From contig JABIVC010000003.1 of NCBI GenBank assembly GCA_018667355.1, forward strand, positions 9,525 to 73,524: a stretch of 64,000 nt of DNA. The letters run 5' to 3'. The position numbers were made by a program, and so were the translations under genes. The notes under the pieces are model-generated. The model saw only the letters and a list, made by a program, of their open reading frames with translations, made no database searches and was not told the DNA's origin. This stretch comes from Gammaproteobacteria bacterium. Its GTDB lineage: Bacteria > Pseudomonadota > Gammaproteobacteria > GCA-002705445 > GCA-002716945. Positions 5,996 to 54,716 of the stretch are shown here, piece after piece; positions within the stretch are counted from its first letter, which is position 1; every line of letters begins with the position of its first letter.

Positions 5996-7501
5996 ATGTG
6001 CGGAATAGTTGCGGTTTATGGGACAAATAATGTAGTTCGCGATATTTATGAATCGTTAACTGTGCTGCAACATCGTGGTCAAGATGCATCAGGAATTCTT
6101 ACGAATCATGAAGGCAAAATTCTTCTTAGAAAATCTCTGGGATTAGTGAGGGATGGGTTTGATGCTCGTCATATATCACGCTTAAAAGGTAAGCTAGGAA
6201 TTGGGCATGTTAGATACCCTACTGCAGGCCAAGCTGACAGCTCATCAGAAGCTCAGCCTTTTTATGTAAATTCACCATATGGAATAGGACTTGCGCATAA
6301 TGGGAATTTAATAAATTCTGCAGAATTAAAAAGTAACCTTTTTTCTGAAGATTTGAGACATATTAACACTAAATCAGACTCTGAAATTTTATTAAATATT
6401 TTTGCTCATGAGTTGCATTTGCATAGTAAAGAGTCCTTTACTCCAGATGATGTATTTTATGCAGTAGCTGGCGTTCATCGCAGAGTAAAAGGTGCTTATG
6501 CTGTTGTTACGTTAATATCTGATAGAGGCATAGTTGCATTTCGCGACCCAATGGGTATCAGACCATTGTGTTTTGGTACTAGAGAAATAGATGGAAAAAC
6601 TGAGACAATGATTGCCTCAGAATCTGTGGCCCTTGATAGCGCAGGTTTTAAGCTAGAACGAGATATTCTACCTGGTGAAGCAGTTTTCGTTGATATTGAC
6701 GGTAACATTCATTCACGATTATGCACAGAAAATACTGGGCATACACCATGTATATTTGAGTATGTTTATTTCGCCAGACCAGATTCAATTATTGATGGTA
6801 TTTCTGTTTATACAGCTAGAATGAAAATGGGGCAAAACCTTGCTAAAAAAATTATTAGAACATGGAAAGATCATGATATTGATGTTGTTATGCCAATACC
6901 TGACACTAGTCGAATATCTGCATTAGAACTATCTGTATCACTTAAAGTCCCATTCAGGGAAGGTTTTATAAAAAATAGATATATTGGCCGTACATTCATT
7001 ATGCCTGAGCAGTCTCAGAGAGCTAAATCTGTAAAAAGAAAATTAAATGCTATAGCTTCTGAGTTCAAAGGTAAGAATGTACTTTTAGTAGATGATTCTA
7101 TAGTACGTGGCACTACATCAAAACAAATTATTGATATGGCTAGAGAAGCTGGGGCAAAAAAAGTTTATATGGCCTCCGCTGCGCCAGCAGTTAAACATCC
7201 TAATGTATATGGTATTGATATGCCAGCTAGTAATGAATTTGCTGCCGATGGAAGGACAGAAAAAGAAATATCAAGTTTAATTGGAGCTGATAGACTTGTC
7301 TATCAAGATCTCTCTGATTTAGTTAAATCAGTTAAAGATTCAGGGTCATCTATAAAAAATTTTGATTCATCTTGTTTTGATGGCAAATATGTTACAGATG
7401 ATGTAACTGAAGAATACCTAAAAGAACTTGATGACCTGCGCAATGATGCTGCAAAAAACAAGAACCCTTCAGATTCACATGATGATGTTATGGTGTATTA
7501 G
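5996..7501 (+). CDS. purF: amidophosphoribosyltransferase
   Basis: MCGIV N-terminal nucleophile; LQHRGQD; [10 protein letters not shown]. Confidence 0.98.
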
Positions 7502-7504
7502 ATA

Positions 7505-8101
7505 ATGTCAGATACTGAGCTTTTAATAACAAAAGCAGTAGGCAAGATATTTACCGAAAGATTTCCTTCAATAAATTCAGAAAAATATATCTTAGTATTA
7601 CCATCTAAACAAATGCTTTTTCTAATCACAAGTAGTAGCATTGCCTCATCATACCCTATATCTACATCAAAGTTTGGACTTGGAAATCAAAATGATTCAT
7701 TTAAAACTCCATTAGGTCTTCATTACATTTCAGACAAGATTGGAAACGATGCACCAAAGATGACTATATTTAGAGGAAGAAAGACTTTAAAAGGTGAACT
7801 TACGTTATCTGATTTAGATCTTCCTGAAAATAAAGAAATCCGTAATAAGCACTTTTTGTCTCATGAAGATGTAATCACTTCAAGAATATTATGGCTAAAA
7901 GGCCATGAAGAAGGGATTAATAAAGGTAAAAATATTGATAGTTATTCACGATATATTTATATACACGGAACAGCTCATGAAGATAAAATTGGTACACCAG
8001 CTTCACATGGGTGCGTCAGAATGAATAATGATGATGTCATTGAGTTATTTAATAATACATTTATTGGTATGCCTGTCCTCATATCGGATTTAACAGATTA
8101 A
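7505..8101 (+). CDS. L,D-transpeptidase (YkuD family)
   Basis: IYIHGT...ASHGCVRM catalytic His/Cys motif; TPLGLH. Confidence 0.88.
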   Translation: MSDTELLITKAVGKIFTERFPSINSEKYILVLPSKQMLFLITSSSIASSYPISTSKFGLGNQNDSFKTPLGLHYISDKIGNDAPKMTIFRGRKTLKGELTLSDLDLPENKEIRNKHFLSHEDVITSRILWLKGHEEGINKGKNIDSYSRYIYIHGTAHEDKIGTPASHGCVRMNNDDVIELFNNTFIGMPVLISDLTD

Positions 8102-8129
8102 TATTACAAACAATCGTGGTGAAATTATT

Positions 8130-8489
8130 ATGACTGAAATATTAATAAAAGATCTGAAAAACATAATATCTGATCTTATAAATACTCCTATATTGATTGA
8201 TAAGTTAGATGAATTAAGAATACAATATGCAGAAATAACTGAGAAATTAGAAAATATAGATATAAATAAAGATAGCAGTCTTTTTGAAACCTTAAAAGAT
8301 CAAAGGCTTAAACTAGAAAATCCTCTAAAAAATTTCATAAACTATAAAAATACAATCATATTAATAAAAGAATGCAAAGATACTATCTCAAAAAGCAAAA
8401 ATAATGAAATTACAACTATTGCAAAAAAAAAATTAAAGGAGAGCTTACGCCTAAAAACAATATTAGAAGAAAGTTTAATAAGGTTATAA
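8130..8489 (+). CDS. hypothetical helical protein resembling the isolated N-terminal domain 1 of class I release factor (RF1)
   Basis: 119-aa ORF on the operon strand; gap-free by-eye similarity to RF1 residues about 1-100; no GGQ or PxT motif. Confidence 0.6.
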   Translation: MTEILIKDLKNIISDLINTPILIDKLDELRIQYAEITEKLENIDINKDSSLFETLKDQRLKLENPLKNFINYKNTIILIKECKDTISKSKNNEITTIAKKKLKESLRLKTILEESLIRL

Positions 8490-9146
8490 AGCCAATATTT
8501 TAATTAAATCTATAGGGTTTGTTATATTTATATCTGCATTCCATGACAGGATATCTTTTTCGGGTCCCACAAAACCAAAGTCTGCAGCTACTGTCAACAT
8601 ACCTGCATTTTTACCTGCTAAAATATCTCTCTCGTCATCTCCTATATAGACAGTATTTTCAGCAGTCACCTCTGCCATATCAATAGCTTTTAATAAACCT
8701 TCTGGATTAGGCTTAGTTTCTTTAAGCATATCACCAGTAACTAGATATTTCACATCTCTAGCAATAGTCAAACCTTCAAGTATTTTATTAACATATTTTG
8801 AATGTTTATTTGTTACAATTCCCCACTTAATATTATTCTTTTTTATATATCCTAATAATTTTGAGATACCATCTACCATCTTTGTATGAACGAAGGTATT
8901 GATTGAGTACTCTTGCAAAAAATCAGCTCTTATGGATGATGAGTCTATCGGTCTCCCATTAACTTTTGAAGCATAGTCTATAATACCAACTGCACCTTTA
9001 GAAATATGAAGCTTCAATTCATTACAACATACATTTATAAATTTTTTTTCTGTCAAGATAGTATTTAATGCATCACACATATCTTTGGAGGTATCTGCGA
9101 ATGTTCCATCTAAGTCAAATAATATACATTCTATATCTTTGTTCAT
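8484..9146 (-). CDS. HAD-family phosphatase (Gph/MupP-like)
   Basis: FDLDGT, VTNK, KPNP and YIGDDERDI HAD motifs; follows ubiG. Confidence 0.85.
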   Translation of the reverse strand: MNKDIECILFDLDGTFADTSKDMCDALNTILTEKKFINVCCNELKLHISKGAVGIIDYASKVNGRPIDSSSIRADFLQEYSINTFVHTKMVDGISKLLGYIKKNNIKWGIVTNKHSKYVNKILEGLTIARDVKYLVTGDMLKETKPNPEGLLKAIDMAEVTAENTVYIGDDERDILAGKNAGMLTVAADFGFVGPEKDILSWNADINITNPIDLIKILAL

Positions 9147-9835
9147 TTTTTTGTGGAGGTCATGAAATAATTGATTTTAGTCATACTTGATAACGAAAAG
9201 GTATGATCTATAGGGTTTAGTTTGACACCAGATACATCATCAATTTTAAATCCAGCAAGCTCCAGTAATAGCGCTAACTCTGATGGTTTAATAAACTTTT
9301 CATATTGATGTGTACCTTGTGGGACAATTTTTAAAAAATATTCTGCAATAACTTTAGCAAAAGCGAAGGAGACAATATTCCTATTAATCGTTGAGAAGAA
9401 TAATGTTGAATTCTTTTTTGTAACTTCAGAAATACTATGAATTAGCTTTTCCTGATCAGGGACATGCTCGATAAGCTCAAAACATATAACTACATCAAAT
9501 TTTTTTTTATTTTTCTCAATATAAGATTCTAGGGTAGAGCATATATATTCGATATTTAGATTACTTTCTTTAGCATGTTGCTTAGCTATGTTGATAGTTT
9601 TTTCTGACGCATCTAATCCTGTTATTTTAGCGCCTTTTTTTGATAACTCTTCAGCAAGTAGTCCTCCACCACAACCTATATCTAGAATACGAAGACCTTT
9701 AATATTGATAGTATTCTGAATATAGTCAACTCTTATTGGTGTCAGGTTATGTATTAGTTTGTATGGGCCTCTTTTATTCCACCATTCATGCGCATATATA
9801 TCAAAATTATCTATTTCTTTTTTATCAATATTCAT
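9143..9835 (-). CDS. ubiG: ubiquinone biosynthesis O-methyltransferase
   Basis: LDIGCGGGLLAE; ELIEHVPD; GTHQYEKFIKPSE. Confidence 0.95.
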   Translation of the reverse strand: MNIDKKEIDNFDIYAHEWWNKRGPYKLIHNLTPIRVDYIQNTINIKGLRILDIGCGGGLLAEELSKKGAKITGLDASEKTINIAKQHAKESNLNIEYICSTLESYIEKNKKKFDVVICFELIEHVPDQEKLIHSISEVTKKNSTLFFSTINRNIVSFAFAKVIAEYFLKIVPQGTHQYEKFIKPSELALLLELAGFKIDDVSGVKLNPIDHTFSLSSMTKINYFMTSTKK

Positions 9836-52900: not shown

Positions 52901-53800
52901 ATGGAAGATAATAATCTCACAAAAATTTTGGTTGATTCTTTGGTTAAAGAACGAGAGTCTGAGAGGAAATTTAAGTTTATTAGAAGAGTGATAGTTTTTG
53001 TACTATTCATTTTGATACTTATATCAATCTTAATGGCTTCTTCAGATATAAATTATTCAAAAGAACATGTGGCACTAATAAATATAAATGGTGAAATATC
53101 AGCAACTGGCCCCGTGAATGTTGAAAGTGTTATTCCTTACATCAAAAAAGCTATCAATAATGACTACTGTCTAGGAGTAGTTTTAAAAATTAATAGTCCT
53201 GGCGGTAGCGCTACACAGTCGAAAATCATATTTGATGAAATAAATAAACTCAAGAAAATCAATGACAAAAAAGTTTATGCAGTCATAGAAGATGTAGGAG
53301 CATCGGGTGGTTACTATATTGCTGCTAGTGGAGAAATGATATTTGCAAATGCATCTAGTATAGTAGGATCTATAGGAGTGCGATTGGATAGCTTTAACTT
53401 ATCATCATTAATGAAGAAGTTAGGTATTGAGGCTCAAGTTATATCTTCTGGCGAAGATAAAACAATGTTGGATCCATTCAATAAACTATCTGAAAAGCAT
53501 AAACTTCACTTGGAATCACTCCTTTCAAGTATTCACAATCAATTTATAAGTGATATTAAAAAATCAAGAGCAAGTAAGATAAATGAAAACAATGTTTTTA
53601 CTGGTTTATTTTGGACAGGTACAGAAGCTCTAAAGATTGGATTAGTTGATGAAATAGCATCTATATATGATGTAAATGAGAAATACTTTGATACTGCTGA
53701 ACTTATTACCTATAACAAAAAAGATAATTTATTAAATGAATTAATGAATGCAAACTTTAAGATATCTTTAGAAAATTCTATTCATGGGATTAAGTATTGA
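52901..53800 (+). CDS. sppA: S49 family signal peptide peptidase (short SppA type)
   Basis: INSPGGS, ASGGYYIA, VGSIGV, GLVDEI. Confidence 0.9.
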   Translation: MEDNNLTKILVDSLVKERESERKFKFIRRVIVFVLFILILISILMASSDINYSKEHVALININGEISATGPVNVESVIPYIKKAINNDYCLGVVLKINSPGGSATQSKIIFDEINKLKKINDKKVYAVIEDVGASGGYYIAASGEMIFANASSIVGSIGVRLDSFNLSSLMKKLGIEAQVISSGEDKTMLDPFNKLSEKHKLHLESLLSSIHNQFISDIKKSRASKINENNVFTGLFWTGTEALKIGLVDEIASIYDVNEKYFDTAELITYNKKDNLLNELMNANFKISLENSIHGIKY

Positions 53801-54716
53801 AAACATGAGGTATCAGGTATTTATCAAAAATATTGATAGTCACAAAAATACTTACTCTTTTGCTCTAGAATCCATAAATAAAAAATATTTGCCCATATAT
53901 TTTGATATTCCATTTACCATGGATACATATAAAAAAACATTTGGCAAAACAATAATTCTAGGAGGGGCTCCTGGGTATTTTGGAGCCATTGCTATATCAG
54001 GTAGAGCAGCTTTATACTCAGGATCAAGGTATGTTGAAATCATGACAACTAAAGAGCATTCTGAGGTTTTACCAATATATCAGCCAGAATTAATCACATC
54101 TTACAAGCTATCTGATTTTCATAAGAAAATTTTATCTTATAAGAATTTGCTCATAGGACCGGGTATGTCTGATGATAAATGGTCACATGATCTGTTTACG
54201 CTTATGAAGAAATACTTATGTAGTCAACACTCAGAGATAAAATGTATTATAGATGGAGGTTTTTTGTCCATTCTCTCTAAAAAACCTTTTAAATACGATA
54301 ATTGGGTTATGACTCCTCATATCGGAGAGGCAGCTAAGCTATTAAATAAGAAACCTAGAGACATAGAAATTAACCGCATAAAGTCAGCAAAAGAACTGCA
54401 ATCTGTTTATGGAGGGATTATAGTTCTCAAGGGACCAAAAACTATTGTCCAAACAAAATCTAACACTTATGTATGCAATCATGGAAACTCAGGAATGGGT
54501 ACCGCTGGCATGGGTGATTGTTTAGCGGGAACAATTTTATCTTTAATTACATTAGCAAATAAAGATGATATTGATACATCTATATTGTTTTCTATAGGCA
54601 TTCATTCTCTAGCAGCTGATATGATTAATGATAACATCGGCCCCATAGGTCTCTTGGCATCTGATGTTATTATTAAGATTAATAAATTATTAAATACTAT
54701 CAAAGTAAAATTATGA
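53784..54716 (+). CDS. nnrD: ADP-dependent NAD(P)H-hydrate dehydratase (YjeF C-terminal domain only)
   Basis: IGPGM, MTPHIGEA, VLKG, GTAGMGDCLAG; no YjeF_N domain. Confidence 0.88.
   Translation: MGLSIENMRYQVFIKNIDSHKNTYSFALESINKKYLPIYFDIPFTMDTYKKTFGKTIILGGAPGYFGAIAISGRAALYSGSRYVEIMTTKEHSEVLPIYQPELITSYKLSDFHKKILSYKNLLIGPGMSDDKWSHDLFTLMKKYLCSQHSEIKCIIDGGFLSILSKKPFKYDNWVMTPHIGEAAKLLNKKPRDIEINRIKSAKELQSVYGGIIVLKGPKTIVQTKSNTYVCNHGNSGMGTAGMGDCLAGTILSLITLANKDDIDTSILFSIGIHSLAADMINDNIGPIGLLASDVIIKINKLLNTIKVKL

What the first reader, a model, noticed from the sequence alone, without database searches (positions are those of the whole stretch)
8130..8489. Stand-alone release-factor domain 1 protein, a possible RF3 or ribosome-stalk adaptor or decoy
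Seen: residues about 24-119 (DKLDELRIQYAEITEKLENIDINKDSSLFETL...LENPLKNFINYK...IKECK...EITTIAKKKLKE...LEESLIRL) align without gaps to my recollection of the RF1 N-terminal pattern DKL.....RYEEL...L.DP.V..D...F..L.KE...LE..V..Y..YK......EAK.......D.EM...A.EEL.......LEE.L..LL. The ORF stops just where RF1 continues into LLPKDP and domain 2, and it has no GGQ or stop-codon recognition loop. Known: domain 1 of RF1/RF2 contacts RF3 and the L11 region and is not needed for peptidyl-tRNA hydrolysis itself. Inference: a clean domain-boundary copy kept in a heavily streamlined genome suggests function, such as modulating termination or recycling, rather than decay. Generic coiled-coil similarity could mislead.
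Basis: partly seen in the sequence, partly recalled or inferred. Interest (0 to 1): 0.7.

Follow-up and report, generated by a model that had tools for sequence, protein, structure and literature searches.

The report
Orphan copy of release-factor-1 first domain
A small gene found in only one marine bacterial species is a genuine copy of just the first domain of release factor 1, but it looks like a recently captured, fast-changing gene fragment and not a conserved regulator of translation termination.

Summary
Window 8130-8489 (+) is an intact 119-codon ORF, and it is a true homologue of RF1 domain 1. It aligns without gaps, from its first residue, to the N-terminal 119 of 121 residues of the 370-aa "long-type" prfA of related genera (up to 45% identity, E 2e-22). 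It ends 2 residues before the (E/D)KDP(N/D)D linker.

- No RF3 was found over the family cut-off in any of the 37 genomes of the family, so an RF3 adaptor or decoy has no partner.
- The ORF is the only stand-alone copy among those 37 species. It sits in a variable slot between convergent ykuD and HAD genes. That slot is empty in relatives or holds ytoQ.
- Its last codon and stop are the HAD gene's own palindromic TTATAA.
- It has lost three polar residues kept in at least 90% of the 21 prfA compared. Its pI is 8.6 against about 5, it has the lowest GC of any gene, and its tree branch is 9 times the median.
- It is fixed in the species, keeps its frame, and keeps helix α1 as well as real prfA do.

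Best reading: a lineage-specific prfA 5' fragment that became an orphan gene, with function unproven.

The parts
8130..8489 (+). ORF119: 119-codon stand-alone homologue of RF1 domain 1 (long-type prfA N-domain, including its 17-20 residue N-terminal extension)
   Evidence: ORF listed. Homology to prfA N-termini. AlphaFold model with mean pLDDT 83.9 and helices at 6-15, 20-41, 49-88 and 92-118. Top Foldseek match is RF1 7m5d_A, E 0.036, TMq 0.58.
8116..8122 (+). GTGGTGA, a possible ribosome-binding site 8-14 nt before the ATG
   Evidence: Read from the sequence. The G-rich stretch lies where G frequency peaks upstream of 583 long ORFs of this genome. Only 26% of those ORFs carry a Shine-Dalgarno-like 4-mer against 12% of shuffles, so this is weak evidence.
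8193..8255 (+). Codons 22-42 (helix α1 of the domain), the best-kept segment
   Evidence: 17-18 of 21 residues are identical to the prfA of four of the six species compared (G016, G017, G011, G012, G020); G001 has 14 of 21. Real prfA pairs of different genera give 15-18 of 21. Third codon positions are only 48-57% identical. In the 8 full-length population variants, only 1 of 10 variable sites lies in residues 1-53.
8250..8309 (+). Codons 41-60: the family's conserved polar motif (P..Y.D....L..LNKE) is degraded here (I..N.D....L..LKDQ)
   Evidence: Block identity is 0.30-0.33 for ORF119 against 0.63-0.64 among real prfA pairs. Y46N and E58Q are losses of residues kept in at least 90% of 21 prfA.
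8394..8429 (+). Codons 89-100: the turn between the two long helices and the start of the last helix, where acidic residues are replaced by N and K (D91N, E99K)
   Evidence: block 91-100: 0.25 against 0.51. That this turn corresponds to the L11-contacting tip of RF1 is my inference from passages of PMC3677378.
8423..8432 (+). Run of 10 A inside the ORF, a slippage-prone site
   Evidence: Read from the sequence. One of the two truncated cluster members (P0009, 103 aa) changes frame here.
8484..8489 (.). Palindromic TTATAA: last codon plus stop of ORF119 on the + strand, and last codon plus stop of the HAD gene on the - strand
   Evidence: The same TTATAA ends the HAD gene in relatives that lack ORF119 (G003, G008, G009).
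7505..8101 (+). Upstream neighbour: L,D-transpeptidase (YkuD), ending 28 nt before ORF119
   Evidence: Pfam PF03734, E 1.3e-21. Synteny.
8484..9146 (-). Convergent downstream neighbour: HAD-family hydrolase
   Evidence: Pfam PF13419, E 4.5e-35. Synteny.

Best explanation
ORF119 is a lineage-specific partial copy of the 5' third of a long-type prfA gene, running from the start codon to the end of domain 1. It landed in a variable slot between the convergent ykuD and HAD genes of this one species.

The copy reads straight into the HAD gene's palindromic stop. This happens to end the protein at the domain boundary and leaves a self-contained helical bundle.

It is probably transcribed with purF-ykuD and translated from its own G-rich site (inferred). 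It has become fixed in the species as an orphan gene.

Its scaffold is retained: helix α1 and the hydrophobic core. The polar motifs that real RF1 N-domains conserve have been lost, and the charge has turned from acidic to basic. It is therefore unlikely to reproduce RF1's ribosome contacts, and it cannot act through RF3, which the family lacks.

I therefore read it as a young, fast-evolving by-product of gene-fragment capture with no established role in termination. It is either drifting or at an early stage of acquiring another use.
For: Origin:
- 45% identity and a gapless alignment to the long-type prfA N-domain from residue 1, including the N-terminal extension.
- Identity to the own short-type prfA is only 28%.

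Restricted distribution:
- It is the only stand-alone copy in 37 of 37 family genomes searched, both with the protein and with an N-domain profile. The second short-frame hit, in G044, lies at a contig end.
- Its only match of 65-209 aa among 5.8 billion proteins is its own cluster.
- The 13 hits among 1.84 billion representatives: of the 12 fetched, 10 are broken or chimeric prfA N-termini, one is a piece of ORF119 itself and one is an unrelated repeat protein; the 13th, a 2,324-aa protein matched at 31% identity, was not fetched.

Variable slot:
- Empty in G001, G002, G006, G007, G008, G010, G011, G012, G014 and G015.
- Holds ytoQ in G003, G005 and G009.
- The stop is donated by the HAD gene.

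No RF3: 0 of 37 genomes over the cut-off.

Divergence:
- End branch 1.44 against a median of 0.16.
- Loss of Y46, E58 and D91, each kept in at least 90% of 21 prfA; pI 8.6 against 4.9-5.9.
- GC 22.1%, below all 584 long ORFs of the genome.
- 8.4 variable residues per 100 aa, against 4.0 and 5.5 in the two neighbours.
Against: Signs of constraint:
- The frame is intact although 5.9% of single-base changes would create a stop.
- 8 of 10 cluster members keep 119 aa. The main variant is on 56 contigs, and 14 runs hold at least half of the stretch's sampled words.
- Helix α1 is as conserved as in real prfA while third positions are saturated.
- Changes fall preferentially on variable columns (AUC 0.60-0.69). 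This resembles the divergent but real prfA of G002 (AUC 0.64), which changes 11 of 32 otherwise invariant columns, exactly as ORF119 does.
- Codon usage is gene-like, at the 24th percentile of real gene windows.

These points fit a protein under some selection. They also fit a recent fragment from an unsampled donor. My tests cannot separate the two.
Confidence: 0.55

Rival explanations
1. ORF119 is a selected small helical protein with a new or partial role. The conserved N-terminal extension and helix α1 would bind whatever partner recognises that surface in long-type RF1. The rest of the bundle would serve only as a scaffold and be free to change.
For: - Residues 22-42 are 81-86% identical to the prfA of five of the six species compared (67% to G001). 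This is as high as between real prfA pairs, and 5-10 of the 14-18 identical residues use different codons.
- Among population variants, 1 of 10 variable sites lies in residues 1-53 and 9 in residues 54-119. My binomial estimate is about 0.025, with the halves chosen after looking.
- Hydrophobic core columns are kept: 10 of the 13 columns conserved in at least 90% of prfA.
- The frame is intact, codon usage is gene-like and a G-rich site lies upstream.
- The model is confident, with pLDDT 83.9.
Against: - It occurs in one species only.
- No partner is known, and no expression data were obtained.
- It has the lowest GC in the genome and about twice the amino-acid polymorphism density of its neighbours.
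- The conservation of α1 could simply be inherited from a recent donor.
Confidence: 0.25
2. One reading: the free domain 1 docks on the ribosomal L11/L7-L12 stalk region, or on RF3, and modulates termination or recycling as an adaptor or decoy.
For: - Homology to RF1 domain 1 is real.
- In E. coli, domain 1 helices α2 and α3 touch the L11 N-terminal domain, and α2 touches RF3 (passages of PMC3677378).
- Domain 1 is dispensable for peptide release (passages of PMC1586002).
Against: - RF3 was found over the cut-off in 0 of 37 family genomes.
- The conserved polar motifs at residues 41-60 and 89-100 are the parts most degraded. Net charge goes from -4 to -7 in most of the prfA N-domains computed (-1 in G015) to +2 in ORF119.
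- It is not conserved beyond one species.
Confidence: 0.1
3. The ORF is not translated at all. It would be an inert relic that has not yet acquired a stop codon.
For: - No RNA contig covered it in two metatranscriptome runs, although depth was very low.
- Promoter-like sites are no more frequent than in shuffles: 12 found against a shuffled mean of 12.3.
- It has extreme AT content.
Against: - It lies 28 nt after ykuD on the same strand with no terminator-like site between them, so it is probably co-transcribed.
- The correct frame scores 0.377, against 0.03 and 0.08 for the other two frames of the same strand.
- It has an ATG start preceded by a G-rich site.
- The frame is kept in variants up to 7% divergent.
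Confidence: 0.1

Closest known systems
Bacterial class-I release factor RF1 (prfA; TIGR00019; Pfam PCRF PF03462 plus RF-1 PF00472), specifically its N-terminal domain 1
   Same: ORF119 is homologous over its whole length to domain 1 of the long-type prfA of related genera. The predicted fold is a helical bundle whose best structural match is RF1.
   Different: It lacks domains 2-4, so it has no stop-codon reading and no GGQ hydrolysis. It scores below the PCRF cut-off. It has lost residues kept in at least 90% of the 21 prfA compared and is basic instead of acidic.
RF-H (PrfH) and ArfB/ICT1: natural class-I release-factor derivatives with missing domains
   Same: They show that the release-factor architecture is modular and that domain 1 can be separated from the catalytic part (PMC1586002, passages).
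   Different: Those proteins keep the GGQ domain and lack domain 1. ORF119 is the reverse, with domain 1 only. They are conserved families, while ORF119 occurs in one species.
Gene fragments and orphan genes born from partial copies in variable intergenic slots of streamlined marine genomes
   Same: It is a single-gene insertion in an otherwise syntenic core region, limited to one species, AT-shifted and fast-evolving. A different gene (ytoQ) occupies the same slot in sister species.
   Different: The fragment starts exactly at the parent's start codon, ends at a domain boundary and has kept an open frame. Most fragments do not.

Membership tests
RF1 / class-I release factor (TIGR00019, PF03462 + PF00472) | Score over the curated family cut-offs | tested here: not met
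   TIGR00019 23 bits against a 423-bit cut-off. PCRF 18.4 bits against 24.
RF1 / class-I release factor (TIGR00019, PF03462 + PF00472) | GGQ peptidyl-tRNA hydrolysis domain (PF00472) | tested here: not met
   PF00472 matches only prfA (C11) and prfB (C7) in the genome. The ORF ends before domain 2.
RF1 / class-I release factor (TIGR00019, PF03462 + PF00472) | Stop-codon recognition domain 2/4 | tested here: not met
   The ORF has 119 residues and stops 2 residues before the domain 1-2 linker.
RF1 domain 1 (homology and fold only) | Significant sequence homology to domain 1 of bona fide RF1 | tested here: met
   E 1.9e-22 at 45% identity to the G016 prfA N-terminus. A profile containing ORF119 and 20 prfA N-domains hits PDB RF1 chains at 1.7e-14; the profile is dominated by the prfA rows.
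RF1 domain 1 (homology and fold only) | Helical-bundle fold superposable on RF1 domain 1 | tested here: inconclusive
   The model has pLDDT 83.9 but was built from an alignment of prfA N-domains. The Foldseek top hit is RF1 7m5d_A with probability 1.00, TMq 0.58 and rmsd 3.5, but E is 0.036 and no match reaches 0.001.
RF1 domain 1 (homology and fold only) | Conserved polar residues of the domain (Y46, E58, D91 in ORF119 numbering) | tested here: not met
   All three are replaced (N, Q, N), although each is kept in at least 90% of 21 prfA.
RF3-dependent termination module | Presence of prfC (RF3) as partner | tested here: not met
   0 of 37 family genomes have a TIGR00503 match over the cut-off. 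The own genome's best hit is 79.9 bits against 466.95. The own genome is 94% complete.
Decaying pseudogene fragment | Frame disruption (stops or frameshifts) or loss in part of the population | tested here: not met
   The frame is open. 8 of 10 cluster variants are full length, and the 2 short ones, each seen on 1 contig, change frame at A-rich runs.
Decaying pseudogene fragment | Relaxed selection (dN/dS near 1) | tested here: inconclusive
   No DNA variants could be obtained. Protein polymorphism density is 1.5-2 times that of the neighbours. Helix α1 is not relaxed.

The most novel reading that the evidence does not exclude
In a bacterial order that has lost RF3, a free-standing RF1 domain 1 is maintained by selection. 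It would act in trans at the ribosome, through its conserved helix α1 and N-terminal extension, to tune termination or ribosome occupancy. This would be the first natural domain-1-only member of the release-factor superfamily, and a live example of a new gene being born from a fragment of an essential translation factor.
Probability: 0.12. Interest if true: 0.7.

Novelty: new variant of a known kind. Interest (0 to 1): 0.3.

Why it matters
If the protein is made and selected, it would be a natural domain-1-only release-factor derivative. That is the mirror image of PrfH and ArfB, which lack domain 1. It would also be a tractable case of gene birth from a fragment of an essential gene in a 1-Mb genome.

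As the evidence stands, it is mainly a well-documented example of fragment capture in a variable slot of a streamlined marine genome. It also warns that a clean domain boundary can be created by a neighbouring gene's stop codon.

Two side results may be of more general use. The whole order lacks RF3. Its prfA N-domains evolve very fast and come in two types, even within one genus.

Tried and rejected
- **DNA-level selection test:** the single metagenome scan returned one locus 100% identical to the window. Laid contigs of run X14 showed 0 differences over the ORF. Raw-read run X21 gave only 30 laid reads, mostly 90-95% alike and mostly on purF. No pN/pS was possible.
- **Expression:** the two RNA runs (X15, X16) placed low-depth contigs (2-4x) almost only on purF; X16 also placed one mismatched piece inside the HAD gene, and none lay on ORF119. 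This is uninformative either way.
- **Longer relatives in the 5.8-billion-protein set:** 1,135 candidates, none scored. The tool itself calls this weak evidence.
- **Viral origin:** 46 pattern matches in viral contigs, none confirmed.
- **RNA element:** no Rfam match at E up to 1 in 7400-9300.
- **Promoters and terminators:** not above shuffles.
- **Uniform-decay scan statistic:** it returned p = 0, but the null could not reach the observed value by construction, so I discard that p-value and use only the block identities.
- **Protein atlas:** the nearest clusters are short PCRF-labelled clusters at score 0.90. This is a lead only, and they may be contig-end fragments.
- **Earlier scan notes:** none near the finding. 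One unrelated note turned up by sequence words.
- **Ancestral-duplicate scenario:** I considered ORF119 as a relic of the genus's own ancestral long-type N-domain, kept since the long-to-short switch. I rejected it as less parsimonious, because it needs loss in at least 7 congeners and an otherwise empty slot.
- **Complex prediction:** no job was sent, because I do not claim a binding partner.

Full report
**What is there**

Window 8130-8489 (+) is an ATG-started ORF of 119 codons. It begins 28 nt after a YkuD-type L,D-transpeptidase gene (7505-8101, +). Its last 6 nt overlap a convergent HAD-hydrolase gene (8484-9146, -). No other ORF of 40 aa or more overlaps it.

The window lies in contig C6 of a 1.03-Mb genome with 31.5% GC, assembled in 17 contigs and rated 94% complete. 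A source names the purF cluster member as coming from a gammaproteobacterial MAG. Runs that hold the stretch are marine or seawater metagenomes.

**Is it RF1 domain 1?**

Direct profile matches are weak:
- PCRF: E 0.002, 18.4 bits, below the 24-bit cut-off.
- TIGR00019: E 3.1e-5, residues 21-116 on positions 5-99.
- PDB RF1 1zbt: E 0.21.

The decisive result came from relatives. A tblastn search of 41 genomes (G000 and 40 relatives) gave as best hits the N-termini of about 370-aa open frames (G016 E 1.9e-22, 45% identity; G017 1.2e-21; G011; G012; same-genus G001 and G002). Those frames are the relatives' canonical prfA: they sit directly after hemA and carry GGQ.

These long-type prfA carry a 17-20 residue N-terminal extension, which ORF119 shares. 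In a MAFFT alignment ORF119 fills 119 of the 121 N-domain columns without a gap. It ends 2 residues before the (E/D)KDP(N/D)D linker.

Supporting structural evidence:
- A profile of ORF119 plus 20 prfA N-domains hits solved RF1 chains at 1.7e-14, but the profile is dominated by the prfA rows.
- An AlphaFold model built on that same alignment, and so not independent, has pLDDT 83.9 with helices at 6-15, 20-41, 49-88 and 92-118.
- Its best Foldseek match is RF1 7m5d_A (probability 1.00, TMq 0.58, rmsd 3.5, E 0.036). No match reaches E 0.001.

**The rest of the termination machinery**

The own genome has a hemA-prfA(350 aa)-prmC operon on C11 and a prfB on C7. There are no further PF00472 hits.

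RF3 was not found. TIGR00503 gives at best 79.9 bits against a cut-off of 466.95 in the own genome. No match is over the cut-off in any of the 37 genomes of the family. The best hits, about 200 bits in roughly 700-aa frames, I read as EF-G from their size, without checking. Passages of PMC1586002 state that domain 1 is the least conserved RF domain, that it is not needed for release, that it is thought to bind RF3, and that RF3 is missing from small genomes. An RF3 adaptor or decoy therefore has no partner here.

**Where it came from**

ORF119 is only 28% identical to its own genome's prfA N-domain, which is a short type without the extension. It is 34-44% identical to long-type N-domains.

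N-domains evolve much faster than the rest of prfA in this family. For example, G000 against G001 is 35% identical in the N-domain and 87% in domains 2-4. Both N-domain types occur within the genus.

In a maximum-likelihood tree ORF119 falls on the long-type/g6 side with weak support (64/94). Its sister is unresolved. Its end branch is 1.44, against a median of 0.16.

**Distribution**

- It is the only stand-alone copy in the 37 species of the family, which is also the whole order as held, by protein search and by profile search.
- The only other extra short-frame hit, in G044, lies at a contig end.
- Among 150 further genomes of the class, the listed rows show only frames of 344 aa or more. 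The one exception is the single hit of G187 in a 147-aa frame, which I did not inspect. 65 matches were not listed, and one genome in that tally (G075) is unpublished.
- Among 5.8 billion proteins, the only match of 65-209 aa is its own 90% cluster.
- Among 1.84 billion representatives there were 13 hits. Of the 12 I fetched, 10 are truncated, frameshifted or chimeric prfA N-termini, one is a piece of ORF119 itself and one is an unrelated repeat protein. The 13th, a 2,324-aa protein at 31% identity, was not fetched.

**The slot**

The order purF-ykuD-[slot]-HAD(-)-ubiG(-) is conserved in the 14 family loci examined.
- The slot is about 0-30 bp in G001, G002, G006, G007, G008, G010, G011, G012, G014 and G015.
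- In the three closest relatives (G003, G005, G009) it holds an unrelated 148-aa gene, ytoQ (PF11071, E 5.5e-67). G000 carries that gene elsewhere, at C15:144451-144897.
- In G008 the two convergent genes share one palindromic TTATAA as last codon plus stop.
- In G000 the same TTATAA supplies ORF119's last codon and stop.

The clean domain boundary is therefore partly an accident of where the fragment abuts the HAD gene. Upstream, nothing resembles the hemA 3' end that precedes real prfA. Instead there is a GTGGTGA 8-14 nt before the ATG.

**Is it under selection?**

For constraint:
- The frame is open although 5.9% of single-base changes would create a stop. Chance for such an ORF is about 3e-6.
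- Codon usage scores 0.377 in frame, the 24th percentile of real gene windows, against 0.03 and 0.08 in the other two frames of the same strand.
- The main variant is on 56 contigs up to 310 kb long, and 8 of 10 cluster members keep 119 aa at up to 7% divergence.
- 14 runs hold at least half of the stretch's sampled words, though 11 of the 20 rows that hold it are flagged as possible sources of the assembly.
- Residues 22-42 (helix α1) are 81-86% identical to the prfA of five of the six species compared (67% to G001). Real prfA pairs from different genera show 71-86%, with third positions near 50%.
- Only 1 of 10 variable sites in the population lies in residues 1-53.
- Changes avoid conserved columns, with AUC 0.60-0.69.

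Against constraint, or for changed constraint:
- Three polar residues kept in at least 90% of 21 prfA are replaced (Y46N, E58Q, D91N). So are 7 of the 20 columns invariant in all nine long-type prfA. The pI is 8.6 against 4.9-5.9.
- The loss is concentrated in blocks 41-60 and 91-100, at 0.25-0.33 identity against 0.51-0.64 in real pairs.
- From passages of PMC3677378, RF1 helices α2 and α3 and the tip of α3 contact the L11 N-terminal domain, and α2 contacts RF3. That the degraded blocks correspond to these surfaces is my inference.
- GC is 22.1%, lower than all 584 long ORFs and in the lowest 0.3% of size-matched windows.
- Amino-acid polymorphism density is 8.4 per 100 aa, against 4.0 (YkuD) and 5.5 (HAD).

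A caution applies. The real, full-length prfA of G002 is almost as divergent: AUC 0.64, with 11 of 32 otherwise invariant columns changed, the same count as ORF119. Much of ORF119's divergence could therefore have arisen inside an unsampled donor's functional gene.

**Verdict**

ORF119 is a genuine RF1 domain-1 homologue. It is best explained as a 5' prfA fragment captured in a variable slot of one species and now fixed as an orphan ORF.

- The RF3 model is excluded by the absence of RF3.
- A faithful L11-stalk decoy is unlikely, because the conserved polar motifs are the parts lost.
- A residual or new function centred on the N-terminal extension and helix α1 cannot be excluded. That is the interesting minority reading.

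**Literature**

I found no description of a domain-1-only release-factor derivative. This rests on three full-text searches, of which I read only the listings, and on passages of two papers. No supplements were consulted.

Noticed in passing
L001 (G000 prfA) against L008-L026 and L052: prfA N-domains in this family come in a long type (about 370 aa, with a 17-20 residue N-terminal extension) and a short type (350-364 aa). Both occur within the window's genus. The N-domain is only about 35% identical between types, while domains 2-4 stay 72-96% identical.
   Followed up: partly
Whole genome G000 and all 37 family genomes: No prfC (RF3) match over the TIGR00503 cut-off in any of the 37 genomes of the family/order. 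The best hits, about 200 bits in roughly 700-aa frames, I read as EF-G without checking.
   Followed up: yes
L028:1021-1464 (G003); also L029 and L030; G000:C15:144451-144897: In the three closest relatives, the ykuD/HAD slot that holds ORF119 in G000 holds a ytoQ gene (PF11071). G000 has its ytoQ (84% identical) at another place, after a glmS-like gene.
   Followed up: partly
Window 8484-8489; L031 (G008): In G008 the convergent ykuD and HAD genes share a single palindromic TTATAA as last codon plus stop on both strands. This is an extreme case of gene packing.
   Followed up: partly
Window 8423-8432: There is a run of 10 A inside ORF119. Two of the 10 cluster members are truncated (79 and 103 aa) by frame changes at A-rich runs. 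These may be sequencing errors or real slippage alleles.
   Followed up: no
Window 53699-53890 (+): A very weak PCRF match (E 0.32, 9.9 bits) lies inside a 950-aa open frame. I take it as chance and did not examine it.
   Followed up: no
G187:C64:8719-9018: The only N-domain profile match in this class-level genome lies in a 147-aa open frame. It is probably a prfA cut by a contig end or a frameshift, and I did not inspect it.
   Followed up: no
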